Positions 3,270 to 38,560 of a DNA stretch of 64,000 nucleotides are shown here, one piece after another. Under the pieces are notes generated by a model, which had not been told where the DNA came from, did no database searches, and saw only the letters and a list, made by a program, of their open reading frames with translations. The stretch is from the IMG/VR virus record IMGVR_UViG_3300045988_171260. One strand, written 5' to 3'. The translations under genes were made by a program, and so were the position numbers. The stretch comes from a virus. Within the stretch, counting starts at the first letter, position 1, and each line of letters begins with the position of its first letter.

Positions 3270-3803
3270 TTAAAAAGCACTAACATCAGCCTTTTTTTCT
3301 TCTTTTGGCTTAACAGTGATTTTTAAATCTTCAATAGGAATCAACTCATACTGGTAATTAGTTGCAAACATAGGAATAATTTTACAAGTACCTCTATTCG
3401 CCTTACACCACAATAAAATTCCTTTATATCTACCTCTACGATTTTTATAAACAGAAATTTTAATTAAAGGTATTTCAAACCCGCCTTGAGCTAAAACATT
3501 TTCTAAAGCCGTACGATCATCATTATCAACTTCAAGCATAATCATACCACAATCAATTTTATCCGCAATAGATTTAGCTCCTCTTAACAGATTCTGATCA
3601 TACTGTTGAGCTGTTATATAACTACTATTTAACTGAGTTGCCGTCATAATAAAAATGCCATACTGATTACACATATCTTTTAAACGAATTGAAATCATAA
3701 AAAGGATATTATCCTCTCTTAACCCTCTCACTCCAGTTTTAGATGAGACTTCACTTAAAATTTTCATACTTGTATGGATGTAATCGAAGCACGTAAGTCC
3801 TCT
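3270..3803 (-). CDS. replicative DNA helicase DnaB-like, exon 2 (C-terminal RecA-like half)
   Basis: Frame opens after TGA at 3807-3809; GLTCFDYIHTSM aligns to DnaB Walker B GLIMIDYLQLM; H3/H4-like RLKDMCNQYGIFIMTATQLN and RGAKSIADKIDCGMIML; 5-prime boundary uncertain by ~15 nt. Confidence 0.65.
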   Translation of the reverse strand, partial: RGLTCFDYIHTSMKILSEVSSKTGVRGLREDNILFMISIRLKDMCNQYGIFIMTATQLNSSYITAQQYDQNLLRGAKSIADKIDCGMIMLEVDNDDRTALENVLAQGGFEIPLIKISVYKNRRGRYKGILLWCKANRGTCKIIPMFATNYQYELIPIEDLKITVKPKEEKKADVSAF

Positions 3804-4811
3804 CTTTCAAGAGGCGTTGACTATCTCTTACTACGACAAAAGTCATAGGAAACCATTTCGAACTACGTACCAATAGTAGTCCTACTCCTCCGATCCGAGG
3901 ATAGTCGATACAGGTTCTTTAGACATTTTTCCAAGTTCTTCTTTTAATCAAATCTGCAACAGTTGCTTTTGAGATTCCATATTGTTTTGCTATTTTATCA
4001 TAGCTTTTCCCTGTTTTTTCTCTTTCTTCCCTAATTGCTTTTACAATTTCAACAGTAAGTTTGGTTTTTCTTCCCGTACCATCATTTGTTTTAAAAACTT
4101 CTGGCATTACAGTAGCATACCTTTTTCCAGTCCAGATATTTAAAAAAGATTGCCATTCTATTCTTCCTTCGTATTTTTCTTTAAATATTTTAGTTGGACT
4201 TTTTTGTTCTTTATAAGCAATTCGCAAAGAGATAACTTCTTCTTTCGTAAGAGCTGCATGAGACCATCTCATTTTTTCTTTAGTCTCTTCCTTATGCGGT
4301 CTCGCACAATTCTTTCCACCTTCTAAAACATTATAGCCATTAGGAACTTTTGAGTTAAATTTTAAAATATAATATTGTTCTAGCTTATTAAGTAAGTCAA
4401 AATCATTGTCATAAATTTCAGCTAATACTTCATAAGTAAAATTTTCATAACCATATTTTCTAAAAGCTCTATGAATTAATGATTCATAATCTTTATCAGA
4501 AGGATTGAAAGCAGAACTTCGATGCTGATTTTTTCTTTGCTCTGGGTTAATTGTTTGTCCTATATATTTTTTATTATTGATTTGATTAGTATAACAGTAA
4601 ACTATTGCCATTTTTAACTCCTTCCACACAATTTTCTATTTGTGTATGAAAGTAGTCAAAATAAATTTGATTATTTCTGTCCAAAGTTTCCCACGGGATT
4701 CCCATATATATTTCTACTTAGGGTTCCCCGTTAGCTATCTTAAACGATAACCCCAGTGGTAAGCTGGAAAAGTTTTACACAGTCCTTTAAACCCACAAAA
4801 GGGTTGAACAC
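3804..4811 (-). mobile_element. group I intron in helicase gene carrying a GIY-YIG homing endonuclease gene
   Basis: Splits DnaB-like ORF between Walker A and Walker B; GCUAACGGGGAA and AAUCCCGUGG core elements shared with two other introns in window; 3-prime AGAUAGUCAACGCC S-like element; exact junctions not resolved. Confidence 0.6.
3919..4629 (-). CDS. GIY-YIG homing endonuclease (intron-encoded)
   Basis: MAIVYCYTNQINNKKYIGQT...NGYNVLEGG classic GIY-YIG N-terminus; lies between helicase exons. Confidence 0.85.
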   Translation of the reverse strand: MWKELKMAIVYCYTNQINNKKYIGQTINPEQRKNQHRSSAFNPSDKDYESLIHRAFRKYGYENFTYEVLAEIYDNDFDLLNKLEQYYILKFNSKVPNGYNVLEGGKNCARPHKEETKEKMRWSHAALTKEEVISLRIAYKEQKSPTKIFKEKYEGRIEWQSFLNIWTGKRYATVMPEVFKTNDGTGRKTKLTVEIVKAIREEREKTGKSYDKIAKQYGISKATVADLIKRRTWKNV

Positions 4812-7359: not shown

Positions 7360-8352
7360 CATATATTATATAATATAATACATCAGACTATATCTTCAAA
7401 TATTTATAAAGGAATATCAGAAAAAACAAAACCTTTTAATTTACGAATACCTTTTAAATATCGGCAAATAGATGAAGGTGCAACTCCAAAAGCTTTAGCA
7501 CACTCTTTTTGTGAATTATAAGAGTCAATAAAATTACCATTATTATCATATACATAAACTATTTTCTTGTTTGAATTACTCCAACAGTTGATCTTATCTT
7601 TTTTATACGATTTAAACTGATATTGTTTATAATGCTGCTGTTGTTCTGTTATACATCTCCATATACTAGTGTAATCCAAATTAAGCTTTTGTGCAGCTTC
7701 ATAACCATTTACAAAAGACTGAATGTAATTGCCACTTAAATCATATTGATGACATTCTTTCATTTCATGTTGTTGTAAATTACTAGTGTAACTATGACGC
7801 ATATTCTCTAATGCTGTTGACCACTCTAAATTATCTATATTATTATTTAATTTATTTCCATCTATATGATTAACTTGCAATTCATCCATCTCTTCACAAG
7901 GTTTAAATGCTTTCATAACCAATCTATGAACTGAGCAATTCTTATCTATTCGATAACGTAAATGCACCATACGATAACCATTATTAGTAACTGATCCTCC
8001 TAATAAGGTTTTAGTTGAATCATTACGCACATTACCATAATTAGATACACTATAAAAAGTTTCTTGACCGTTAATTAAAATTTTTTTCCAAATTTCTTGT
8101 TTTTCCATAATTATTCCTCCTAAATACCTACGGGTATTTCGATTATAAAATCTACGGTTATAAAACCTAGTCGTTGAACCTTTGTCTCCGTGAGACACTT
8201 GGCTGCGGATTGGAACTACAATAAACGTTTTACTATACCAAGCACATTACTACTTGCCATTATAATATCGCTATTATAACTTAGTCTTTATTGATTATAT
8301 TCTATCCCCGCAATTTCCCCATATTATCGTGGCAAAAATTCTCTCTCTATTC
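7360..8352 (-). mobile_element. group I intron interrupting the Walker A codons of the ATPase gene; carries HNH endonuclease ORF
   Basis: Exon 1 ends GGU (U) at 8353, intron ends G at 7360; intron has AAAUUGCGGGGA (P), AAUCCGCAGCC (Q), GUUCAACGACUAG (R), AAGAUAUAGUC (S) elements. Confidence 0.7.
7404..8198 (-). CDS. HNH homing endonuclease (intron-encoded)
   Basis: 264 aa; HRLVMKAF...VNHIDGNKLNNNIDNLEW...ENMRH HNH motif. Confidence 0.75.
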   Translation of the reverse strand: MSHGDKGSTTRFYNRRFYNRNTRRYLGGIIMEKQEIWKKILINGQETFYSVSNYGNVRNDSTKTLLGGSVTNNGYRMVHLRYRIDKNCSVHRLVMKAFKPCEEMDELQVNHIDGNKLNNNIDNLEWSTALENMRHSYTSNLQQHEMKECHQYDLSGNYIQSFVNGYEAAQKLNLDYTSIWRCITEQQQHYKQYQFKSYKKDKINCWSNSNKKIVYVYDNNGNFIDSYNSQKECAKAFGVAPSSICRYLKGIRKLKGFVFSDIPL

Positions 8353-10737: not shown

Positions 10738-11544
10738 TTATTTATTTCCAGAAGTGCTATTATAGCCATAAATATCACTTTGATACATTTGAATCCAAAA
10801 TTTTTCTTTTTCGTTTAATTCTGTTCTTGAACATTCTTCCATCAATTCAAAAGAAAAATTCCAAACACCATCTTGTTGCATTGCTTTATATAACTTATTT
10901 GTTGCGGAAGCATCTATTCCCAATCCGCATTTAACGTGCTGCTTAAATCTATCTTGAATATTAACGCTTTGTCCAATATAGCATTGTTTAGTTAATAAAT
11001 TTGTAATTTTATAGATTCCGCATTTAGTAGTAGTTCCTAATATCCTATTGCACATTTCAGTTGTTTGTTTTTGAAAATAAGTTGACCAAATAATTTTATT
11101 TAAAACAACAGGTTGATGAAAAGAAACTTTTATTTTATTTAATGCCATGATATCTGATAATTCATTATCTGTAATAGTTAATTTGTAAAAGTTAATTTCT
11201 TCTTCTTTTTCTCTTTCGCGGAGTTGAGCTTGAACGCCTGCACTTAATGATTCTTTTAATTTACATAAAGATTCAGTAATTTCTTTCTTCTCTTTATCAG
11301 TTTTGACTTTATATAAATCATATCTTAATTCCATATCTTCATATGCTTTTTCTAATTCTATAACATATTGTTCTTTTGCATATTTAATTTTATCTTTATA
11401 ACTATTATATTCTTTTAATTGATTTTCTTTAAAAATGTTTAATTGTTCCAATATATCATCTTTCTTTTGACAGAAAGATTTAAAAGCATCAGATTGTTGC
11501 TCTGTAAGTAAAGATAATTCTCTTTGCCTGCCTTTGATTTGCAT
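10738..11544 (-). CDS. coiled-coil protein with C-terminal GIY-YIG nuclease domain
   Basis: N-terminal ~170 aa Lys/Glu-rich; C-terminus GIYKITNLLTKQCYIGQSVNIQDRFKQH...YGYN; start ATG 11544 (ORF track uses TTG 11550). Confidence 0.55.
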   Translation of the reverse strand: MQIKGRQRELSLLTEQQSDAFKSFCQKKDDILEQLNIFKENQLKEYNSYKDKIKYAKEQYVIELEKAYEDMELRYDLYKVKTDKEKKEITESLCKLKESLSAGVQAQLREREKEEEINFYKLTITDNELSDIMALNKIKVSFHQPVVLNKIIWSTYFQKQTTEMCNRILGTTTKCGIYKITNLLTKQCYIGQSVNIQDRFKQHVKCGLGIDASATNKLYKAMQQDGVWNFSFELMEECSRTELNEKEKFWIQMYQSDIYGYNSTSGNK

Positions 11545-11788
11545 TATCAAATTACGTTTTTGAAAAGCTAAAGAATTTAATTCTTTTAATAAAGCTTCTT
11601 TTTCTTTCTCTTCCTTTTTATTATTATATATAATAGTATTTTTTGATTTTATTGTTAAATATATCCCATAAAATAAAAAAATAATACTAATAAATAAAAA
11701 GAATATTATATAAACAATATCGGTAGCCTCCTTAAATAAAAAGAATGGGTTAAACTAATAATTAGCTTAACCCTTTTAAAATTTATGA

Positions 11789-13524: not shown

Positions 13525-15867
13525 TTATAACTTAACAATAGAAGAGATTGAACTATTCTTTAACATAATATTTCCTATGCTTGTGCGGCTTAACTTAGGA
13601 ATATCTTTTGTAGATATACATATTGATTTTGGTTTGCCTACAATTAATAAGTTATCTGAATCATCAACCATGCTTCCGCCAATGATTACTCCAGAAGTAT
13701 CTGTAGTTTTATAAATAACAACTCCCTTTCCCGCTCTTTGCTGAAGTGGTAGTTCCTCTAAAGATAATTTCTTTCCCAAACCCCTTGCTGTAACAATAGC
13801 TAAACAATCATTCTTATTACTAATTGGTAATCCCGCAATAACTTCATCATTTTCATCTAACTTAATAGCTTTAACGCCTGCGGTAACTCGTCCAATAGGA
13901 TTGATTTCATCTGTGGGAAAATGAATAGCCATACCATTCTTTGTTATAATCATCATCTCTTCTTTTTCTATGAAAGTTACATTAGCTAGAGAATCATTAT
14001 TTTTTAAATTTATTGCGGCAATACCTGTACTTCTCTTTACTTTAGTATATTCTTCTAAAGAAGTCTTCTTAATTAAACCTTGCTTAGTTACAAAAATAAC
14101 ATATTTTGCTTTTGTTTTTCTATGCAAAGAAGTAATAGCAATAACTTTTTCATCTTTTTCTATATTTATTAAAGTGCCAATATTTATTCCTTTTGATAGA
14201 TTAGTTCCAACTGGTATATTATCCACCAGAAGTCTATACATTTTACCTTTAGATGTAAAAATCATAAGAGTATCAATAGTATTAGTAGATATAACGTCTA
14301 ATATGGCGTCATTTTCACTTTTGACTCCTTTTCCATTCTTCTTCTGAACTTTAAAAGATTTTAAAGGAACTCTTTTAATATCTCCATTTTGAGCCGCAAT
14401 AACAACTACATTTTCTGGAATAATTTCTGCAACTTCTTTTTCTTCTGGCTTAATATCAATGTGAATTAATTCAGTTCTTCTGTCATCACCATACTTTTTT
14501 ACTAGTGATTCTAATTTAGTTTTAATATCAGATAACTGCAATTCTCTATTTGAAATATGTAATTCCAATTCCGCAATTTTAATTAACAAGTCTTTCTTTT
14601 CGTTTTCAAGAGTTATTTTTTCCAAACGAGCTAAACTAGATAATCTCATTGCCAAAATGGATTTAGTTTGAATTTCAGACAGCTTATAAATTTCAATTAG
14701 TTTATTTTTCGCAGCTTCTGAATTTTCTGACTTTTTAATTAAAGAGATTACATTATCAATGTCCTCTAAAGCTATCAAAAGACCTTCTACAATATGTAAT
14801 CTATCTTTTGCTTTCTTTAAATCAAAAGTCAATTCTTTTTTTAAACATTCAATATTATGCTCTATATATATCTTACAACAGTCAGCTAAATTTAGCTCAG
14901 TTGGTACTTTATCAACTAAGGCGACTTGATTATATGATATGCTTGTTTGAAGGTTTGTTTTAGAATAAAGCTTTTTTGCTATTGAATCTAAGTTCGAATC
15001 TTTTTTACACTCGATTACAAGTCTAATTCCTTTTTTGTTTGTTTCGTCGCGGATTTCAGAAATTCCTTCTATCTCTTTTGAATCACAAACCTCACCTATT
15101 TCAGTCAGTAACCCTTCAATAGTAGTTCCATAAGGAATTTCATAAAAGACAATGTTATTTTTTTCAATTTTATATTTTCCGCGGACTTTAACAGAACCAT
15201 GTCCAGTTTTCATAATCTGCGGAATATCTTTACTATTTATTATAATTCCACCTGTTGGAAAATCCGGTCCAGGTAAAAGAGGCTTTTTTCCGTCCATGTA
15301 ATCATAAATAGCTTGTGCAACTTCCTTAAGGTTGTGCGGAAGCCAGTTACAGGCGATGGCAACTCCAATTCCAGTATTTGGGTTACACAGTAAGTTTGGA
15401 AAAATAGCTGGTAAGGTTACTGGTTCATCCAGAGTTTCATCATAATTTTGAATAAAATCAACATTTTTCTTTTTTAATCCAGATAATAAGCCATCTTCTG
15501 CAATTTTACTTAATCTTGCTTCTGTATAACGAGATGCAGCAGGTCCATCTCCTGCAATATTTCCGTTATTACCATGCCAGTCAATAAGAGGGTATCGCAA
15601 TACCCAGTTTTGAGAGAGACGGACTAGAGCACCGTAGATTGAACTGTCTCCGTGCGGATGATATTTACCCATGACGTCTCCTACTATTCTAGCACTTTTA
15701 ATATGAGGTTTAGAAAAAGTTCTTCCCTCTTCAAAAGCTGACCATAAGATTCTCTTTGCAACAGGTTTTAAACCTGACTTTGCATCAGGAATTGCTCTAT
15801 CGGTATTAACTGCAACTGCATACTCTATAAAGTTCGTACCAAGTTCTTGCTTTATATCATTCTGCAT
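13525..15867 (-). CDS. type IIA DNA topoisomerase subunit A (GyrA/ParC / T4 gp52-like)
   Basis: 780 aa; ...YHPHGDSSIYGALVRLSQ...RYTEARL active-site Tyr context. Confidence 0.85.
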   Translation of the reverse strand: MQNDIKQELGTNFIEYAVAVNTDRAIPDAKSGLKPVAKRILWSAFEEGRTFSKPHIKSARIVGDVMGKYHPHGDSSIYGALVRLSQNWVLRYPLIDWHGNNGNIAGDGPAASRYTEARLSKIAEDGLLSGLKKKNVDFIQNYDETLDEPVTLPAIFPNLLCNPNTGIGVAIACNWLPHNLKEVAQAIYDYMDGKKPLLPGPDFPTGGIIINSKDIPQIMKTGHGSVKVRGKYKIEKNNIVFYEIPYGTTIEGLLTEIGEVCDSKEIEGISEIRDETNKKGIRLVIECKKDSNLDSIAKKLYSKTNLQTSISYNQVALVDKVPTELNLADCCKIYIEHNIECLKKELTFDLKKAKDRLHIVEGLLIALEDIDNVISLIKKSENSEAAKNKLIEIYKLSEIQTKSILAMRLSSLARLEKITLENEKKDLLIKIAELELHISNRELQLSDIKTKLESLVKKYGDDRRTELIHIDIKPEEKEVAEIIPENVVVIAAQNGDIKRVPLKSFKVQKKNGKGVKSENDAILDVISTNTIDTLMIFTSKGKMYRLLVDNIPVGTNLSKGINIGTLINIEKDEKVIAITSLHRKTKAKYVIFVTKQGLIKKTSLEEYTKVKRSTGIAAINLKNNDSLANVTFIEKEEMMIITKNGMAIHFPTDEINPIGRVTAGVKAIKLDENDEVIAGLPISNKNDCLAIVTARGLGKKLSLEELPLQQRAGKGVVIYKTTDTSGVIIGGSMVDDSDNLLIVGKPKSICISTKDIPKLSRTSIGNIMLKNSSISSIVKL

Positions 15868-16509: not shown

Positions 16510-16912
16510 TTACTCAGCATTATATGTTGCCTCCTGCGAATGTTCTTTAATATATGCTTTTCTTGCAGTTACCCCATTTCCCATTAACTGTTCAAAAAGA
16601 ATTGAAGTTGCACTAACATCTTCAACTGTAATTTGTCTGATAATTCTTTTCTCAGGATCTGTTAAAGTTTCTTCTGTCTCGTCTACTGACATTTCACCTA
16701 ATCCCTTCATACGCCCAACCAAATACTTCTTTCCTGCATTAGCTTTTTTAAATGCCTCTAATTCTTCATCATTTTTTAAGTATTTATATTCTTTTCCAAT
16801 AGTAATTTTGTATAAAGGTGGAACTCCCGCATAAACATATCCATCCTTTATAAGTTCTGGACAAAAGTTCCATATAAATGTATAGAAAAGATTTTTGATA
16901 TGTGCCCCGTCG
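16510..16912 (-). CDS. type IIA topoisomerase subunit B (GyrB / T4 gp39-like), exon 3
   Basis: DGAHIKNLFYTFIWNF...VYAGVPPLYK; splice joins SDADV|DGAHI. Confidence 0.7.
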
Positions 16913-17285
16913 CGTCTCATTCTCATGTTTCCATAAGCACTGACTATCTTTTACTTAATATAAATTAAGGAGACCTTTTCGACATTTAACCAGCTTCGTT
17001 ACCTAAAACTAGACTACGTATCAATAGTAGCTCTACTTCCCTGCCCAGAAGGCTTAGGGAATAGTCGATACAGCTTCAATTATTCTTCATTTTATATTTT
17101 ATATTTTATATTTTGTAAGATTTATAAATATAAACTAAAGAACAAAAGTTTGCCACGGGATTCTCATACGCTTTATCATCACGATATACGCTCCAGAGTT
17201 CCCCGTTAGCATATATTATTATTATTATAGTAATAATATATACCCGCTTGATTAAGCGAAAAGTCTTTCATACGCCGTATTACTG
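16913..17285 (-). mobile_element. ORF-less group I intron (373 nt) in GyrB-like gene
   Basis: 5-prime exon ends GU at 17286, intron ends G at 16913; P1 GCGU pairs exon ACGU; GCUAACGGGGAA core and AGAUAGUCAGUGC 3-prime element. Confidence 0.65.
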
Positions 17286-17524
17286 ACGTCCGCATCTGAC
17301 ATTATAATTATTTTACCATATCTTAAATCTTCTTTATCGTAAGTTACTTTCATAGTTTTAGGATCAATTTTAAGTCCAAAAGCATCAATCATAGTCATGA
17401 TCTCAGCGTTTTTCTGAATTTGAGTTAATGTAGCTTTTTGACAATTTAAAATTTTTCCTCTTACAGGCATGACTGCCTGGAATTCGTTGTTCCGTGCTGT
17501 TTTTAAGTTACCTGAAGCACTATC
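17286..17524 (-). CDS. GyrB-like exon 2 (TOPRIM region)
   Basis: DSASGNLKTARNNEFQAVMPVRGKILN...YGKIIIMSDADV. Confidence 0.7.
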
Positions 17525-18609
17525 CGTGCATATCCCATATTTCTATAGGCACTGACTATCTCTTCACTCCGATTTGTCAAATCTTCAACGTGTCCTCTAT
17601 TTCCACTTTTGTATCAATAAAAAGTGTACTTCCAATCTCACTTGGAATAGTCGATACAGCTTATTTTATATCTTTGTATGTTTGTCGAGTTATTATATTA
17701 TATATAGTACTCCAGGCAGAATTTGGAGCATACTTTTTCCAAACTTCTTTTGGAGTCATTCCCTTATCATAATCTTTTCTCATATTTTTTACTTCTTCAT
17801 TAGAAAATTTTCTTTTGTTATTTGAAGCTATTTCAAAGCTATTAGCTTTAGCTTGGTGAGAATGCCAATATTTATTTTCTTCAGAATGATATTCTGGATG
17901 GATATCTTTCCAAGTTTCAAACCACCAAACTTTTTGTAAACCTCTTTTAGATATTTTATTTTTATATTCTTCATAAACTTGTTTAAAAGAAATATGATTA
18001 TTATAACATTCTCTTATATATTCTACATCTTCCTTGGATAATAAAGCTCTTCCATTTTTTTCACCATACTGAGATCTATTAGGATTATCTTCTCCTCCAG
18101 GAGTTGCATTATATCCTTCTTTATAAGAGTTATAATATTTAATAAAATATTTTTCAAGATCGTTTAGCATATCTTTAGAATATTCTTCATTAGATATTTC
18201 TGCAATTATTTCATAATCAAAATTTTCTAATCCATATTTTCTTATTGCTTGATGTAACTGGCTATTATAATCTTTTGCTTTTTCGTTAAAAGCTGATGAT
18301 TTATGTGCCATTTTTCTTTGTTTTAAATTAATACTTTGTCCTATATAGACTTTTTTATTAATTTTATTTTGATATTTATATATACCTATCATATATTCAC
18401 TGTCTCCTTATAATTTATTCATTACAATATGAAGGAGACTCTATTTTCATTAATAACCTTTGACAAAAATATAAAATCTTGCCACGGGATTGACTTCACC
18501 TAAACATGTTTTGACTTTCACGTATAATGGTCAGCTTTCCCCGTTAGCACGCAATTTGCGTACCCCGCTGATAAACGGTAAAAAGGATTAGGGCAATATT
18601 TTTTTACTT
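17525..18609 (-). mobile_element. group I intron (1085 nt) with GIY-YIG homing endonuclease gene
   Basis: Exon 1 ends GGU at 18610; IGS GCCCU pairs exon AGGGU; CAAAUUGCGUGCUAACGGGGAAAGCUGACC core; intron ends G at 17525 giving EIYVTEG|DSASG. Confidence 0.7.
17661..18392 (-). CDS. GIY-YIG homing endonuclease (intron-encoded)
   Basis: MIGIYKYQNKINKKVYIGQSINLKQRKMAH...NGYNATPGG. Confidence 0.85.
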   Translation of the reverse strand: MIGIYKYQNKINKKVYIGQSINLKQRKMAHKSSAFNEKAKDYNSQLHQAIRKYGLENFDYEIIAEISNEEYSKDMLNDLEKYFIKYYNSYKEGYNATPGGEDNPNRSQYGEKNGRALLSKEDVEYIRECYNNHISFKQVYEEYKNKISKRGLQKVWWFETWKDIHPEYHSEENKYWHSHQAKANSFEIASNNKRKFSNEEVKNMRKDYDKGMTPKEVWKKYAPNSAWSTIYNIITRQTYKDIK

Positions 18610-19881
18610 ACCCTCAGTCACGTATATTTCGCACTTCATTCTATCCTTTGAATAACAATCCGCGAGTTTAGAATCAAATTTTAAAACTTTTTCTTTTTTC
18701 TTTTTTTCTTTTTCTCTTGCAAGTTCTCTTGCTTTTTTCGCGGCTTCACTTGCCTTTTTCGCGGCGATTGCTTTATCAAAAATTACTTTAATCTCTTTTT
18801 CATTTGACAAGAGCCAGCTCTGAAGGGCGGTAGTAAAAGCAGATGTTTCAGGTTTTGTATCAATAGCTGTAACTCTGGATTTTACTTGAGCATCATACGA
18901 AACACTTGGAGCAGTATAATTAAATACAACGTACATTCCCTCTTGAATACTGTCACCTGTAAGGTTTTCGTCTTTTTCTTTTAACCATTTCTTATCTCTA
19001 AAAAATTTATTCATTTCTCTTGTAAGAGAAGTTTTAAGCTGTGTAATATGTGCTCCTGTATCGGTAAGACCAGTATTTACATATGGAATAATAGTTGAAG
19101 AATAATTAGAGGTGTACGTCATAACTAGATTAAGTTTAAATTTATCTTGTGAAAAATCTACATTTAATCTATTAGTTATAATTTCTTTATCTTTAACGGC
19201 ATCATCAACTAAATCATTTAAACCATGCTGAGATTGATATACTTCTTTTTTTCCGTTATTATCAAGATTAATAGTTAATCCGGGACATAAACAACTAATT
19301 GTTTTAAATAACGTTTGGATTTTATTAATCTCTACTTCTGTATTTGCAAAAAAATCTTCAGATGGCTGCCAAGTCACGACAGTACCACTTTCTCCTGTCC
19401 AGTGTCCTGTAGCCCTATCTTTAAATACTCCTTCATTAAAAGTAATTTTTTCATATTCATTATCTCTATGAGTTTCAACGGTCAGCCAATGTGACAAAAA
19501 CGTTGTGATTTTTGAACCGATACCGAATGAACCCAGTGAAGTTCCTTCATATGATCCATCTTCCCGGTATTTTCCAGATGTGTTTAATACACTAAAAGCT
19601 GCTTCAAGAACTGTTTTTCCATCTTCACGAATTGAATTGGGGATAAAACCTTGTCCATAGTCATGTACAGTTACTACGTCTTTGACGATATTAACATCAA
19701 TTTGAGTTCCATGTCCTGCATTAAATTCATCAACTGCATTAGAAAAAATTTCAACAAGTAATTGTGTTGAATAAGTACAATCACCAGCGTAAACTTGTGG
19801 TCTTAGTCGAGTAAATTCCAACGGATTTAATGAAATTAAGCTATTTTCATTATATAAATTATCTTGTCTCTCTTGTCTCAT
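18610..19881 (-). CDS. GyrB-like exon 1 (GHKL ATPase domain)
   Basis: ...EIFSNAVDEFNAGHG...DYGQGFIP...EIYVTEG. Confidence 0.75.
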
Positions 19882-37513: not shown

Positions 37514-38560
37514 TTAAAATTCAAATGCTTCCGCTTTTAATTCAGGATGAGTAATTTTAATATAAGTACCTTTCATGCCCATACTAGCAATATCTGCTAC
37601 TTTATTCTCTTTCATTTTACTTAAAAGATTATTATAAACAGAACGTGAAATTTTGTTTTTTTCAACCAACTTAACGATACTTATACTGCCCTCACTGCCA
37701 ATTTCTTCAATAATAGAATAATAAGCTCTCTCTTCTGCATTAGTTAATTGTCTAAAGAAATTTTTTTTTGAAATAAATTCTTTTTTAACTCCGTCAAAAG
37801 AACTTCTTAAAATTTCAATAGTACCAATATCTAACGCAGCTTCTGCGTTTTCACGTTCTGGAGATTTTCTATTGCGATATTTTGTTGCGAACCTATCTAC
37901 ATCATACATAAGAGTTTCTGCGAGATATAATTTTTTTTCTGGATTTGAGCATACCTTTAATAAACCATACTTTAAATTCCAAAGCATAGTAAAGTTTTCT
38001 TCTTTTGGTTGAATACACTCTAAGTAAGGTTTATTTTGAACATATTGTTCTAAGAAATAAAATAATCTTTTTGCATTATGCAATTTCTTATTATCTGTAG
38101 GATTCTGCTTTAATGTATGAACTAACTGACCGCTAATGGACTGTATTGCCCTAAGTTCATCATATCTTGCAATAGATTCTCTTGAGGCGATAAAATATTT
38201 ATGAAATAAATCTTTATATTTTGGATTTATAATACAATATTCTGTAAATAAAATCTCTGTATAGTTGATATTTTGTTTCATTAGCTGAATCCGCAGAGAA
38301 CGAAAGTCTTTTAAATCAATATGTTCACCATTTTTATAATGGATTTCTTTAGAAAGTAGTGAAGTGTTTAAACACAAATCAGAAAAAGATGGCAAAATAA
38401 ACACCTTACTATCAACATCACTAGTCTCTGTCGCAAAACCATAGTTTTGAGAGCCATAAAGAAAGATACCTAAAATTCTATCTTCATTATAACCTAAGTC
38501 GATTACATAGTCTAAATGCTCTTGAAGTCTTTTCATTATTTTTTCTTTTTGTACAGCCAT
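37514..38560 (-). CDS. Pol-beta superfamily (minimal) nucleotidyltransferase with C-terminal winged-helix-like region
   Basis: LYGSQNYGFATETSDVD matches GS...DxD NTase motif; C-terminal SIIEEIGSEGSISIVKLVEKNKISRSVYNNLLSKM HTH-like. Confidence 0.55.
   Translation of the reverse strand: MAVQKEKIMKRLQEHLDYVIDLGYNEDRILGIFLYGSQNYGFATETSDVDSKVFILPSFSDLCLNTSLLSKEIHYKNGEHIDLKDFRSLRIQLMKQNINYTEILFTEYCIINPKYKDLFHKYFIASRESIARYDELRAIQSISGQLVHTLKQNPTDNKKLHNAKRLFYFLEQYVQNKPYLECIQPKEENFTMLWNLKYGLLKVCSNPEKKLYLAETLMYDVDRFATKYRNRKSPERENAEAALDIGTIEILRSSFDGVKKEFISKKNFFRQLTNAEERAYYSIIEEIGSEGSISIVKLVEKNKISRSVYNNLLSKMKENKVADIASMGMKGTYIKITHPELKAEAFEF

What the first reader, a model, noticed from the sequence alone, without database searches (positions are those of the whole stretch)
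16510..19881. GyrB-like topoisomerase subunit split into three exons by two group I introns; junctions predicted at nucleotide level
Predicted junctions follow the U/G rule with plausible P1 pairings.

- Exon 1 ends GGU (18610); intron 17525-18609 contains a GIY-YIG endonuclease; result EIYVTEG|DSASG.
- Exon 2 ends GU (17286); ORF-less 373-nt intron 16913-17285; result SDADV|DGAHI.

Both introns and the helicase intron share a GCUAACGGGGAA...AAUCCCGUGG core and an AGAUAGUCAGUGC 3-prime element. This points to one intron family that has spread to three or more sites; one copy has lost, or never gained, an endonuclease.
Basis: seen in the sequence. Interest (0 to 1): 0.5.

Follow-up and report, generated by a model that had tools for sequence, protein, structure and literature searches.

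The report
Two self-splicing introns in phage gyrB
A phage topoisomerase (GyrB/ParE-like) gene is interrupted at its two catalytic metal-binding motifs by two mobile group I introns of the T4/Twort type, which is a well-known kind of selfish element and so ordinary in kind, though this intron family is common in uncultured phages and the standard Rfam model does not detect it.

Summary
On the minus strand, exons 19881-18610, 17524-17286 and 16912-16510 join in frame into a 637-aa GyrB/ParE-like protein. It aligns without gaps at either junction with S. pneumoniae ParE (E=1e-105). Eighty related viral contigs encode the same gene uninterrupted, with identical residues and spacing across both junctions.

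The 1085-nt and 373-nt inserts are group I introns. They have U at -1, a terminal G, a guide sequence pairing with the exon end, and the P3/P7 pseudoknot with P4-P6, P7.1, P7.2, P8, P9 and P9.0. In 40 family members 94.6% of cells pair and 31 of 48 pairs covary. A model built only from this family finds the proven T4 td, nrdD, nrdB and Twort introns.

A third copy splits the DnaB-like helicase at 4806-3790. Rfam RF00028 misses all three, but it also scores T4 td below threshold.

Relatives show every stage of endonuclease-gene gain, decay and loss, and a sharp recombination breakpoint 215 nt upstream of intron 1.

Verdict: correct, and a new member of a known kind. The one unusual feature is a 5' domain in which two hairpins separate P3 from J3/4. 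Splicing itself is inferred, not shown.

The parts
18610..19881 (-). gyrB/parE-like exon 1 (ATPase and transducer domains, up to ...EIYVTEG); last 5 nt AGGGU form the P1 5' strand
17525..18609 (-). Group I intron 1 (1085 nt): guide sequence GCCCU 18590-18594; P4-P6 core 18482-18548; P6a stem 18469-18477 with 17663-17671; 3' half (P7 to terminal G) 17525-17660; terminal G at 17525
   Evidence: (108.3 bits)
17661..18392 (-). GIY-YIG homing-endonuclease ORF (243 aa) in the P6a loop; the end of the ORF overlaps the P6a 3' strand
18402..18439 (-). Hairpin GUCUCCUU...AAGGAGAC that pairs the endonuclease ORF's Shine-Dalgarno sequence (weak support)
   Evidence: -12.4 kcal/mol, z = -1.9
17286..17524 (-). 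Exon 2 (DSASG...IIMSDADV; Toprim core between the E-G-D-S-A and D-x-D-x-D motifs)
16913..17285 (-). Group I intron 2 (373 nt, no ORF): guide sequence GCGU 17272-17275; core 17153-17210; AU-rich P6a loop with AUAAAAU repeats; extra hairpin branching from P7.2; P7 3' strand and P9.0 at 16937-16949; terminal G at 16913
   Evidence: (74.6 bits, not in the seed set)
16510..16912 (-). Exon 3 (DGAHIKNL... to stop; rest of Toprim and the GyrB C-terminal domain)
3790..4806 (-). Third family member, in the DnaB-like helicase gene (exons 5837-4807 and 3789-3270); junction KYVF|FDY corrected with an empty-site allele
   Evidence: (122.8 bits)
3919..4629 (-). GIY-YIG plus HTH endonuclease ORF inside the helicase intron (first ATG at 4611; the ORF list starts it at a GTG at 4629)
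19940..20707 (-). Free-standing GIY-YIG/NUMOD endonuclease gene immediately upstream of the gyrB-like gene (context, not part of the introns)
13525..15867 (-). GyrA/ParC-like partner subunit, uninterrupted (context)

Best explanation
The gyrB/parE-like gene of this AT-rich, tRNA-rich phage carries two group I introns with a T4/Twort-type (IA2-like) catalytic core. After transcription each intron folds. Its guide sequence pairs with the last 4-5 exon bases, placing a U.G wobble at the 5' splice site. A free guanosine bound in P7 attacks that site. The intron's own terminal G, positioned by the short P9.0 helix, then occupies P7, and the freed exon end attacks the 3' site. The three exons are joined into one mRNA for a 637-aa topoisomerase B subunit. 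Intron 1 also encodes a GIY-YIG homing endonuclease in the P6a loop. That enzyme would cut intron-less alleles during co-infection and copy the intron, with flanking exon sequence, into them. Intron 2 is a copy that has lost its endonuclease gene. Shown here: exon collinearity, exact junctions, the fold with covariation, homology of the core to proven self-splicing introns, and presence/absence polymorphisms. Inferred: that splicing occurs and is autocatalytic, and that the endonuclease is active and cuts this site.
For: Exons: the spliced product has Pfam DNA_gyraseB, Toprim and GyrB_C domains. It aligns over residues 4-628 with ParE 4juo_C, E=1.4e-105, with no gap at either junction. All 80 relatives (69-81% identity) encode one uninterrupted ORF with the same junction residues and 80-aa motif spacing. 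L123 reads GAGGGT|GATAGTGCTTC, and L125, L137 and L181 read GATGCGGACGT|CGATGG. Fold: strand-swap tests support P1 (p=5e-5 when anchored on U.G) and P3, two 5' hairpins, P6a, P7.1, P7.2, P8, P9 and P9.0 (p<=0.0002 each). On MAFFT alignments not fitted to the structure, 91.3% of cells pair against 68.2% shuffled with 24/31 pairs compensatory, and 94.6% against 76.7% with 31/48 pairs compensatory, including 5/6 pairs of the P3 pseudoknot helix; 0/500 shuffles reach these values. Homology to proven introns: model R1, built only from this family, hits T4 td (45.5 bits, E=2e-9), nrdD (45.9), nrdB (26.8), the Twort three-intron cluster and a second Twort intron, and only the three expected sites in the window. 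P7 (GACUAU/AUAGUC) and the P4/J4-5 sequence (CGGGGAA...AAUCCCG) are the same as in T4 td. Mobility: intron 1 lacks its ORF in L034 while the P6a stem is intact. The helicase site is empty in the same 86-kb contig at 96% protein identity. Endonuclease ORFs at the same sites range from intact to fragmented. Identity to L034 jumps from 45-70% to 92-100% about 215 nt upstream of intron 1.
Against: There are no RNA data. Rfam RF00028 gives no hit at its gathering score or at E<=10 on the region, and only 12.7 bits (E=1) on intron 2 alone. This is weakened by the control: proven T4 td scores only 40.3 bits, below the 50-bit cut-off. P1 is short (5 and 4 bp). Intron 2's P9.0 is reduced to 2 bp and its P10 to 2 bp. 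P4, P5 and P7 are invariant, so covariation cannot test them. The 5' domain departs from T4/Twort. The effect of this on catalysis is unknown.
Confidence: 0.9

Rival explanations
1. The inserts are group I introns by descent but no longer splice (or intron 2 does not). The gene would then be a pseudogene, or be expressed as fragments, with the host's gyrase doing the work.
For: Intron 2 has a weakened P9.0 and P10 and no endonuclease. RF00028 barely recognises it. Exon 1 would terminate two codons into the intron.
Against: All three exons keep frame and every catalytic residue, and the product is collinear with the ParE structure. The ribozyme core is conserved, with compensatory changes across 40 members, and intron 2 scores 74.6 bits full length with R1. 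The intron-bearing block is 98% identical in an independent contig. The GyrA-like partner is intact.
Confidence: 0.05
2. The introns splice at the predicted sites but only with help from a phage or host protein (a maturase-like activity of the endonuclease, or an RNA chaperone), not autonomously.
For: P1 helices are short, and the 5' domain is unusual, with no P2 between P1 and P3. Protein-assisted splicing is established for some group I introns (PMC3984707).
Against: Intron 2, and intron 1 in L034, lack any ORF yet persist in intact genes, so an intron-encoded maturase is not required. The core is as complete as in T4 td, which self-splices.
Confidence: 0.1
3. The interruptions are another kind of element: a group II intron, an intein, an insertion sequence or an assembly artefact.
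For: None found.
Against: Stop codons follow both exon ends, so inteins are excluded. There is no reverse transcriptase or group II match in Rfam. The same introns recur at the same sites in independent contigs. The fold is group I.
Confidence: 0.01

Closest known systems
T4 td intron with I-TevI (proven self-splicing IA2 intron; T4T HM137666.1)
   Same: Same order of core elements. P4/J4-5 (CGGGGAA...AAUCCCG) and P7 (GACUAU/AUAGUC) have the same sequence. P7.1 and P7.2 are present. A GIY-YIG endonuclease ORF is looped out of the P6 region, and the host gene is a DNA-metabolism gene. R1 hits it at 45.5 bits. The I-TevI catalytic domain is 33% identical to the intron 1 ORF over 93 aa.
   Different: td has P1-P2-P3-J3/4-P4 with the P3 5' strand (UCUAUC) abutting J3/4. 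The window family has no P2, and two hairpins lie between the P3 5' strand and J3/4. td has a longer 3' tail (P9.1/P9.2), whereas here the terminal G follows P9 by about 8 nt. The endonucleases' C-terminal regions show no detectable similarity: the BLAST match is limited to the N-terminal ~93 aa.
Staphylococcus phage Twort introns (three in one gene; crystal-structure ribozyme)
   Same: Several related group I introns interrupt a single phage gene. P7.1/P7.2 are present and P9 has a GAAA loop. R1 hits at 52, 22.8 and 15.1 bits in the 16.7-17.5 kb cluster and at 37 bits elsewhere.
   Different: Twort has the canonical P2 then P3 (AUCCUC) abutting J3/4 (UAAU). The host genes differ. The Twort copies in that cluster have no ORF.
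Enterococcus phage EF5/EF1 intron between two DNA polymerase gene pieces (cultured phage; record annotated only with split CDSs; an 'HNH homing endonuclease # Phage intron' CDS lies just upstream)
   Same: It is a true member of the window's family: the same GCUAACGGGGAA core, the same two 5' hairpins, P7.2 loop UAUUGAUAC, and 75-82% identity to intron 2's 3' half.
   Different: A different host gene and insertion site, and a different ORF.
Rfam RF00028 Intron_gpI
   Same: It matches one family member (L095 9031-9265, 36 bits) and aligns its P1, P4-P6, P7, P8 and P9.
   Different: The window introns do not reach any useful score. The model forces P3 onto the second hairpin's 3' strand, not onto the covarying upstream strand.

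Membership tests
Group I intron | 5' splice site after a U that forms a U.G wobble in P1 with an internal guide sequence | tested here: met
   Intron 1 AGGGU/GCCCU and intron 2 ACGU/GCGU. Across 34 distinct members, the anchored P1 score is 8.18 for cognate pairs and 5.80 for swapped pairs, p=5e-5. The exon ends are fixed independently by intron-less alleles.
Group I intron | Terminal G at the 3' splice site, positioned by P9.0 | tested here: met
   G at 17525 and 16913. There is a G 28-30 nt after P7 in all 40 members. P9.0 covaries (GUG/CAC, GUA/UAC, GCG/CGU, GCA/UGU), p<=0.0002. It is weak (2 bp) in intron 2.
Group I intron | P3-P7 pseudoknot enclosing P8, with a P4-P5-P6 domain | tested here: met
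   In P3, 5 of 6 pairs are compensatory and 91% of cells pair. P4 and P7 pair 100% but never vary. P6 and P5 each have one covarying pair. P8 p<=0.0002.
Group I intron | Guanosine-dependent self-splicing | not testable with these tools
   This needs in vitro transcription with GTP. It is supported only by the P7 sequence being the same as in T4 td.
Group I intron | Match to the curated covariance model RF00028 at its gathering score | tested here: not met
   No hit; 12.7 bits for intron 2 alone. Control: proven T4 td reaches only 40.3 bits against a cut-off of 50, so the test is insensitive for this class.
Group I intron | Detectable homology to experimentally proven group I introns | tested here: met
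   R1, built from the family's 3' halves, hits T4 td, nrdD and nrdB and the Twort introns at E from 1e-4 to 4e-11, with no other significant hit in 233 kb.
Subgroup IA2 (T4/Twort type) | P7.1 and P7.2 between P7 and the P3 3' strand | tested here: met
   P7.1 has 4/4 pairs compensatory and P7.2 has 7/7.
Subgroup IA2 (T4/Twort type) | P2 hairpin between P1 and P3, with the P3 5' strand adjacent to J3/4-P4, as read in td, nrdD and Twort | tested here: not met
   The strand that covaries with the P3 3' strand lies upstream of two hairpins (mean score 11.8, against 6.4 for the canonical position; 25 distinct duplexes). The canonical order was read. Whether the formal IA2 definition requires this order was not checked.
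GIY-YIG homing endonuclease (I-TevI-like) | N-terminal GIY-YIG catalytic domain | tested here: met
   Pfam PF01541: E=1.3e-5 for the intron 1 ORF and 6e-9 for the helicase-intron ORF. 33-36% identity to I-TevI over about 93-112 aa.
GIY-YIG homing endonuclease (I-TevI-like) | Cleaves the intron-less allele near the insertion site | not testable with these tools
   Indirect evidence only: presence/absence polymorphisms and a high-identity tract flanking the intron.
Type IIA topoisomerase B subunit (GyrB/ParE) | Transducer, Toprim (E-G-D-S-A and D-x-D-x-D) and C-terminal domains, collinear with solved structures | tested here: met
   Pfam did not list the HATPase_c domain, but the ParE alignment covers residues 4-628.

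The most novel reading that the evidence does not exclude
The window's introns belong to a large, so far undescribed structural subclass of phage group I introns. At least 120 viral contigs carry it, including cultured Enterococcus phages and Lak megaphages. In this subclass P2 is absent, and a conserved two-hairpin module (first loop UAAUCA, then GGU-hairpin-GCU) is inserted between the P3 5' strand and J3/4. This could be part of why the Rfam group I model scores these introns poorly, so such introns may be under-annotated in phage genomes and leave 'split' genes uncalled.
Probability: 0.3. Interest if true: 0.5.

Novelty: new member of a known kind. Interest (0 to 1): 0.35.

Why it matters
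For annotation, the gene should be called as one spliced 637-aa topoisomerase subunit, not as three fragments, and likewise the helicase. The same correction applies to many related metagenomic phage genomes. For biology, it adds a type IIA topoisomerase to the list of phage DNA-metabolism genes colonised by group I introns, with both introns sitting in the catalytic Toprim metal-binding motifs. I found no report of this in the paper library I could search. It also offers a natural series (intact, decayed and lost endonuclease genes, plus empty sites in near-identical genomes) for studying the homing cycle. For methods, it shows that Rfam's group I model misses a common phage intron family. 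None of this changes what is known about how such introns work.

Tried and rejected
1. Rfam at the gathering score, at E<=10 on the region, on intron 2 alone and at E<=0.05 on the whole window. There was no usable RF00028 hit, and the T4 td control shows the test is insensitive.
2. Megablast of 8 kb against GenBank phages found nothing. tblastn found only distant relatives at <=35% identity, many of them bacterial gyrB sequences.
3. I considered a tertiary pairing between the conserved P7.2 loop (GAUAC) and J6/7 (GUAUC). It has no covariation (p=0.73), and J6/7 variants are not compensated, so I dropped it.
4. Placing the P3 5' strand in the canonical position next to J3/4 gives a mean score of 6.4 against 11.8 for the upstream strand, so I rejected it.
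5. My first helicase junction (…UAUGU|) was wrong by 3 nt. The empty-site allele L249 (KYVFFDY) requires …GUGUU|. As a result the helicase seeds in A1 carry a 3-nt-short exon flank, which only weakens the P1 statistic.
6. Seed L095_7161 turned out to be a chimera of two neighbouring introns. It was left in A1, which is conservative, and excluded from A2 and.
7. An unconstrained P1 search was too noisy, so I replaced it with curated exon ends and an anchored test.
8. P10 is 4 bp for intron 1, 2 bp for intron 2 and absent for the helicase intron (hand reading). I did not use it as evidence.
9. A whole-intron covariance model was not attempted, because A1 has 406 columns and a model that long would exceed the calibration limit. 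Only the 3'-half model was built.
Full report
**Setting.** The window is AT-rich (31% GC), and almost all of its genes lie on the minus strand. It looks like a large lytic phage. It has replication genes, a GyrA/ParC-like gene at 13525-15867, a lysin, several endonuclease genes and an array of 32 tRNA genes at 43-58 kb. It has no near relative among GenBank phages. It has dozens of relatives among uncultured viral contigs of 100-170 kb.

**The observation.** Every coordinate in the finding is right. On the minus strand an ORF from 19881 runs to ...GAG GGU at 18610 and then hits a stop two codons later. Reading resumes in frame at 17524 (GAU AGU GCU...) and runs to GAC GU at 17286. It resumes again at 16912 (C GAC GGG GCA...) and ends at 16510. 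The exons are 1272, 239 and 403 nt long, which sum to a multiple of three, and give a 637-aa protein. That protein has Pfam DNA_gyraseB, Toprim and GyrB C-terminal domains. It aligns from residue 4 to 628 with S. pneumoniae ParE (4juo_C, E=1.4e-105), with no gap at either junction.

- Junction 1 lies between G and D of the Toprim E-G-D-S-A motif.
- Junction 2 lies inside the valine codon of D-A-D-V-D-G.

That these two motifs are the catalytic metal-binding motifs of type IIA topoisomerases is established knowledge about the family, not a result obtained here.

**Independent test of the junctions.** A search with the spliced protein returned 80 viral loci at 69-81% identity. In every one the gene is a single uninterrupted ORF that contains both motifs, with the same residues across the joins and 80 (in some, 82) residues between them. 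The spliced window product has exactly 80. At nucleotide level, L123 reads GAGGGT GATAGTGCTTC, and L125, L137 and L181 read GATGCGGACGTCGATGG. Junction 1 is therefore unique. Junction 2 can be drawn one base to either side because C flanks both ends.

**Are the inserts group I introns?** Rfam's model RF00028 says nothing useful. There is no hit at the gathering score, none at E<=10 on the region, 12.7 bits on intron 2 alone and none in the whole window at E<=0.05. As a control I fetched the proven T4 td intron. It scores only 40.3 bits, below Rfam's own 50-bit cut-off. The negative result is therefore weak evidence, and I built the case from comparative data.

**A large family.** Seventy distinct copies also have the 3' core. 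The distance from P6 to P7 is bimodal, 20-95 nt or roughly 500-1000 nt, which corresponds to copies without and with an ORF.

**Evidence for the fold.**

- A strand-swap test that needs no alignment compared each copy's own two strands with strands swapped between copies. It supports P1 (p=0.007; p=5e-5 when anchored on the U.G pair and with the corrected helicase site). It also supports P3, two 5' hairpins, P6a, P7.1, P7.2, P8, P9 and P9.0, each at p<=0.0002.
- On a MAFFT alignment of 26 3' halves that was not fitted to any structure, 91.3% of cells pair. The value is 68.2% after shuffling and about 40% when partners are slid. Compensatory changes occur in 24 of 31 pairs, and 0 of 500 shuffles reach the observed values.
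- On the 40-sequence whole-intron alignment, 94.6% of cells pair against 76.7% shuffled, and 31 of 48 pairs are compensatory. This includes 5 of 6 pairs in P3, the helix that forms the group I pseudoknot with P7.
- P4 and P7 pair in every sequence but never vary, so covariation cannot test them. Their sequences are the same as in T4 td.
- P9 ends in a GAAA loop (GNAA or a 5-nt AAA-containing loop in a few members).
- A short P9.0 helix covaries (GUG/CAC, GUA/UAC, GCG/CGU, GCA/UGU, ACG/CGU) and places a conserved G 28-30 nt after P7.
- Guide sequences compensate for different exon ends. Examples are GAGGAU/GUCCUC, GGCGGAU/GUCCGCU, AGCGU/GCGCU, UGGGU/GCCCA and CAGGU/GCCUG.

**Link to proven introns.** A covariance model of the 3' half (R1) was built only from this uncultured family. 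It was run over the window, the T4 loci and the whole Twort genome, 233 kb in all.

| Target | Score (bits) | E-value |
|---|---|---|
| Window helicase intron | 122.8 | 8.9e-30 |
| Window intron 1 | 108.3 | 5.4e-26 |
| Window intron 2 (not in the seed set) | 74.6 | 3.9e-17 |
| Twort three-intron cluster | 52, 22.8, 15.1 | 3.5e-11, 0.0016, 0.17 |
| T4 nrdD | 45.9 | 1.4e-9 |
| T4 td | 45.5 | 1.8e-9 |
| A second Twort intron | 37.1 | 2.8e-7 |
| T4 nrdB | 26.8 | 1.4e-4 |

It also hit two sites in Lak-B1, and nothing else was significant. The window introns are therefore homologous in their catalytic 3' domain to introns whose self-splicing has been demonstrated.

**The one departure from the textbook.** In td, nrdD and Twort the order is P1, P2 hairpin, P3 5' strand, J3/4, P4. 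For example, nrdD has UCUGCC-UAAAA-CGGG pairing with GGCAGA. In the window family the strand that covaries with the P3 3' strand follows the guide sequence after only two A's. It is separated from J3/4 (UAA) by UUU, a hairpin with a conserved UAAUCA-type loop, GGU, a second variable hairpin, and GC.

The upstream strand scores 11.8 on average, against 6.4 for the canonical position, with 25 distinct compensating duplexes. Both hairpins covary. Rfam's alignment of a family member forces P3 onto the second hairpin instead. I could not establish whether this arrangement has been described. The papers I could search do not mention it, and one recent survey notes that phage 'IA2' introns are heterogeneous (PMC11878797). 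I treat it as a family trait worth recording, not as a claim of novelty.

**The third copy.** The DnaB-like helicase is split by a family member with its own GIY-YIG ORF. My first junction was wrong by one codon. The 86-kb contig that also carries the gyrB introns has an uninterrupted helicase gene at 96% protein identity, reading AAA TAT GTA TTC TTC GAT TAC. The window's exon 1 therefore ends ...GUGUU at 4807, and the intron is 4806-3790. The splice-site rules still hold, and P1 is short (GUU/GAC).

**Mobility.**

- The three window introns are only 59-65% identical to each other in their cores, so they are old members of one family and not recent copies.
- The same gyrB site 1 is occupied in L034, L035 and L075. 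Site 2 is occupied in L034, L107, L038, L064, L078, L057 and L037. The helicase site is occupied in L013, L053, L025, L031 and L065. Other Toprim genes carry family members a few codons away, at PLRG|KI and DPDG|NHI.
- In L034, intron 1 is 98-99% identical to the window's but lacks the ORF. The P6a stem AUUUUAUAU/AUAUAAAAU, which flanks the ORF in the window, closes into a plain hairpin there.
- Intron 2's same-site homologues keep an insert of about 770 nt that encodes an intact 236-237-aa GIY-YIG protein in L038 and L064. In four others only fragments of 74-86 aa remain. This favours loss of the ORF in the window's intron 2.
- The endonucleases resemble each other over their full length (35% over about 245 aa) and resemble I-TevI over the catalytic domain (33% over 93 aa).
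- Identity between the window and L034 jumps from 45-70% to 92-100% about 215 nt upstream of intron 1. It stays at 98% through exon 2 and intron 2. That is the pattern expected if the intron-bearing block was copied into a diverged allele together with flanking exon sequence, or exchanged by recombination.

**Rivals.** Inteins are excluded by the stop codons after both exon ends. There is no group II signature, and assembly error is excluded because the introns recur in independent contigs. The serious alternatives are that one intron no longer splices, or that splicing needs a protein. Intact exons, a conserved and compensated core, and ORF-less copies persisting in intact genes argue against the first and limit the second. 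Only RNA data can settle either.

**Verdict.** This is a new member of a well-known kind of element, in a host gene and at sites I did not find reported. It belongs to an abundant intron family that the standard model fails to detect.

Noticed in passing
window 54489-54944 (-): Full-length (1-416 of 416) but sub-threshold match to GOLLD RNA (RF02032): 104.2 bits against a gathering score of 150, E=2.7e-26. It lies inside the tRNA gene array.
   Followed up: no
window 46620-46733 (-): Y-RNA-like (YrlA, RF02553) match: 40 bits against a gathering score of 69, E=2.4e-5. It lies next to tRNA-Lys at 46785-46857.
   Followed up: no
window 43303-58088 (-): An array of 32 tRNA genes covering most amino acids, all on the minus strand.
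   Followed up: no
window 18825 (approx.) versus L034: A sharp mosaic breakpoint in gyrB exon 1. Identity to contig IMGVR_UViG_3300045988_162193 is 45-70% upstream and 92-100% from about 215 nt before intron 1 through intron 2. The helicase of the same contig is 96% identical in protein sequence.
   Followed up: partly
window introns 1-3 and about 40 family members (alignment A1 columns 52-120): The P3 5' strand is separated from J3/4-P4 by two covariation-supported hairpins, and there is no P2 between P1 and P3. This differs from T4 td, T4 nrdD and Twort.
   Followed up: partly
window 16975-17020 (-), intron 2; also L065, L031, L038, L064, L086, L101, L001: An extra hairpin (…UUUUAGGNAACGAAG…) branches from the 3' side of P7.2. 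The two outer P7.2 pairs close around it in 39-40 of 40 sequences.
   Followed up: partly
window 17085-17115 (-), intron 2 P6a loop: Tandem 7-nt AUAAAAU-type repeats in the AU-rich loop. The L034 allele has one unit fewer.
   Followed up: no
window 18402-18439 (-): A hairpin pairs the Shine-Dalgarno sequence of the intron 1 endonuclease ORF (-12.4 kcal/mol, z=-1.9). From my own knowledge, it is reminiscent of the translational control of I-TevI.
   Followed up: partly
window 19940-20707, 10738-11550, 7404-8198 (all -): Further endonuclease-like genes outside introns: a GIY-YIG plus NUMOD ORF directly upstream of gyrB, a 270-aa ORF with a C-terminal GIY-YIG domain, and an ORF with an HNH-type NHIDGNKLNN motif.
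   Followed up: partly
L095 (about 15 kb viral contig): This contig carries at least seven RF00028 hits, two above the gathering score, plus two family members, one of them in a Toprim gene. It is an unusually intron-dense stretch.
   Followed up: no
L002 510-624 and 2489-2659 (Prevotella phage Lak-B1, unannotated record): Two R1 hits (50 and 40.9 bits) indicate group I introns of this family in Lak megaphages. The Lak paper discusses only tRNA introns.
   Followed up: no
window 37750-37855 (-): A marginal R1 hit (13.1 bits, E=0.56), probably noise.
   Followed up: no
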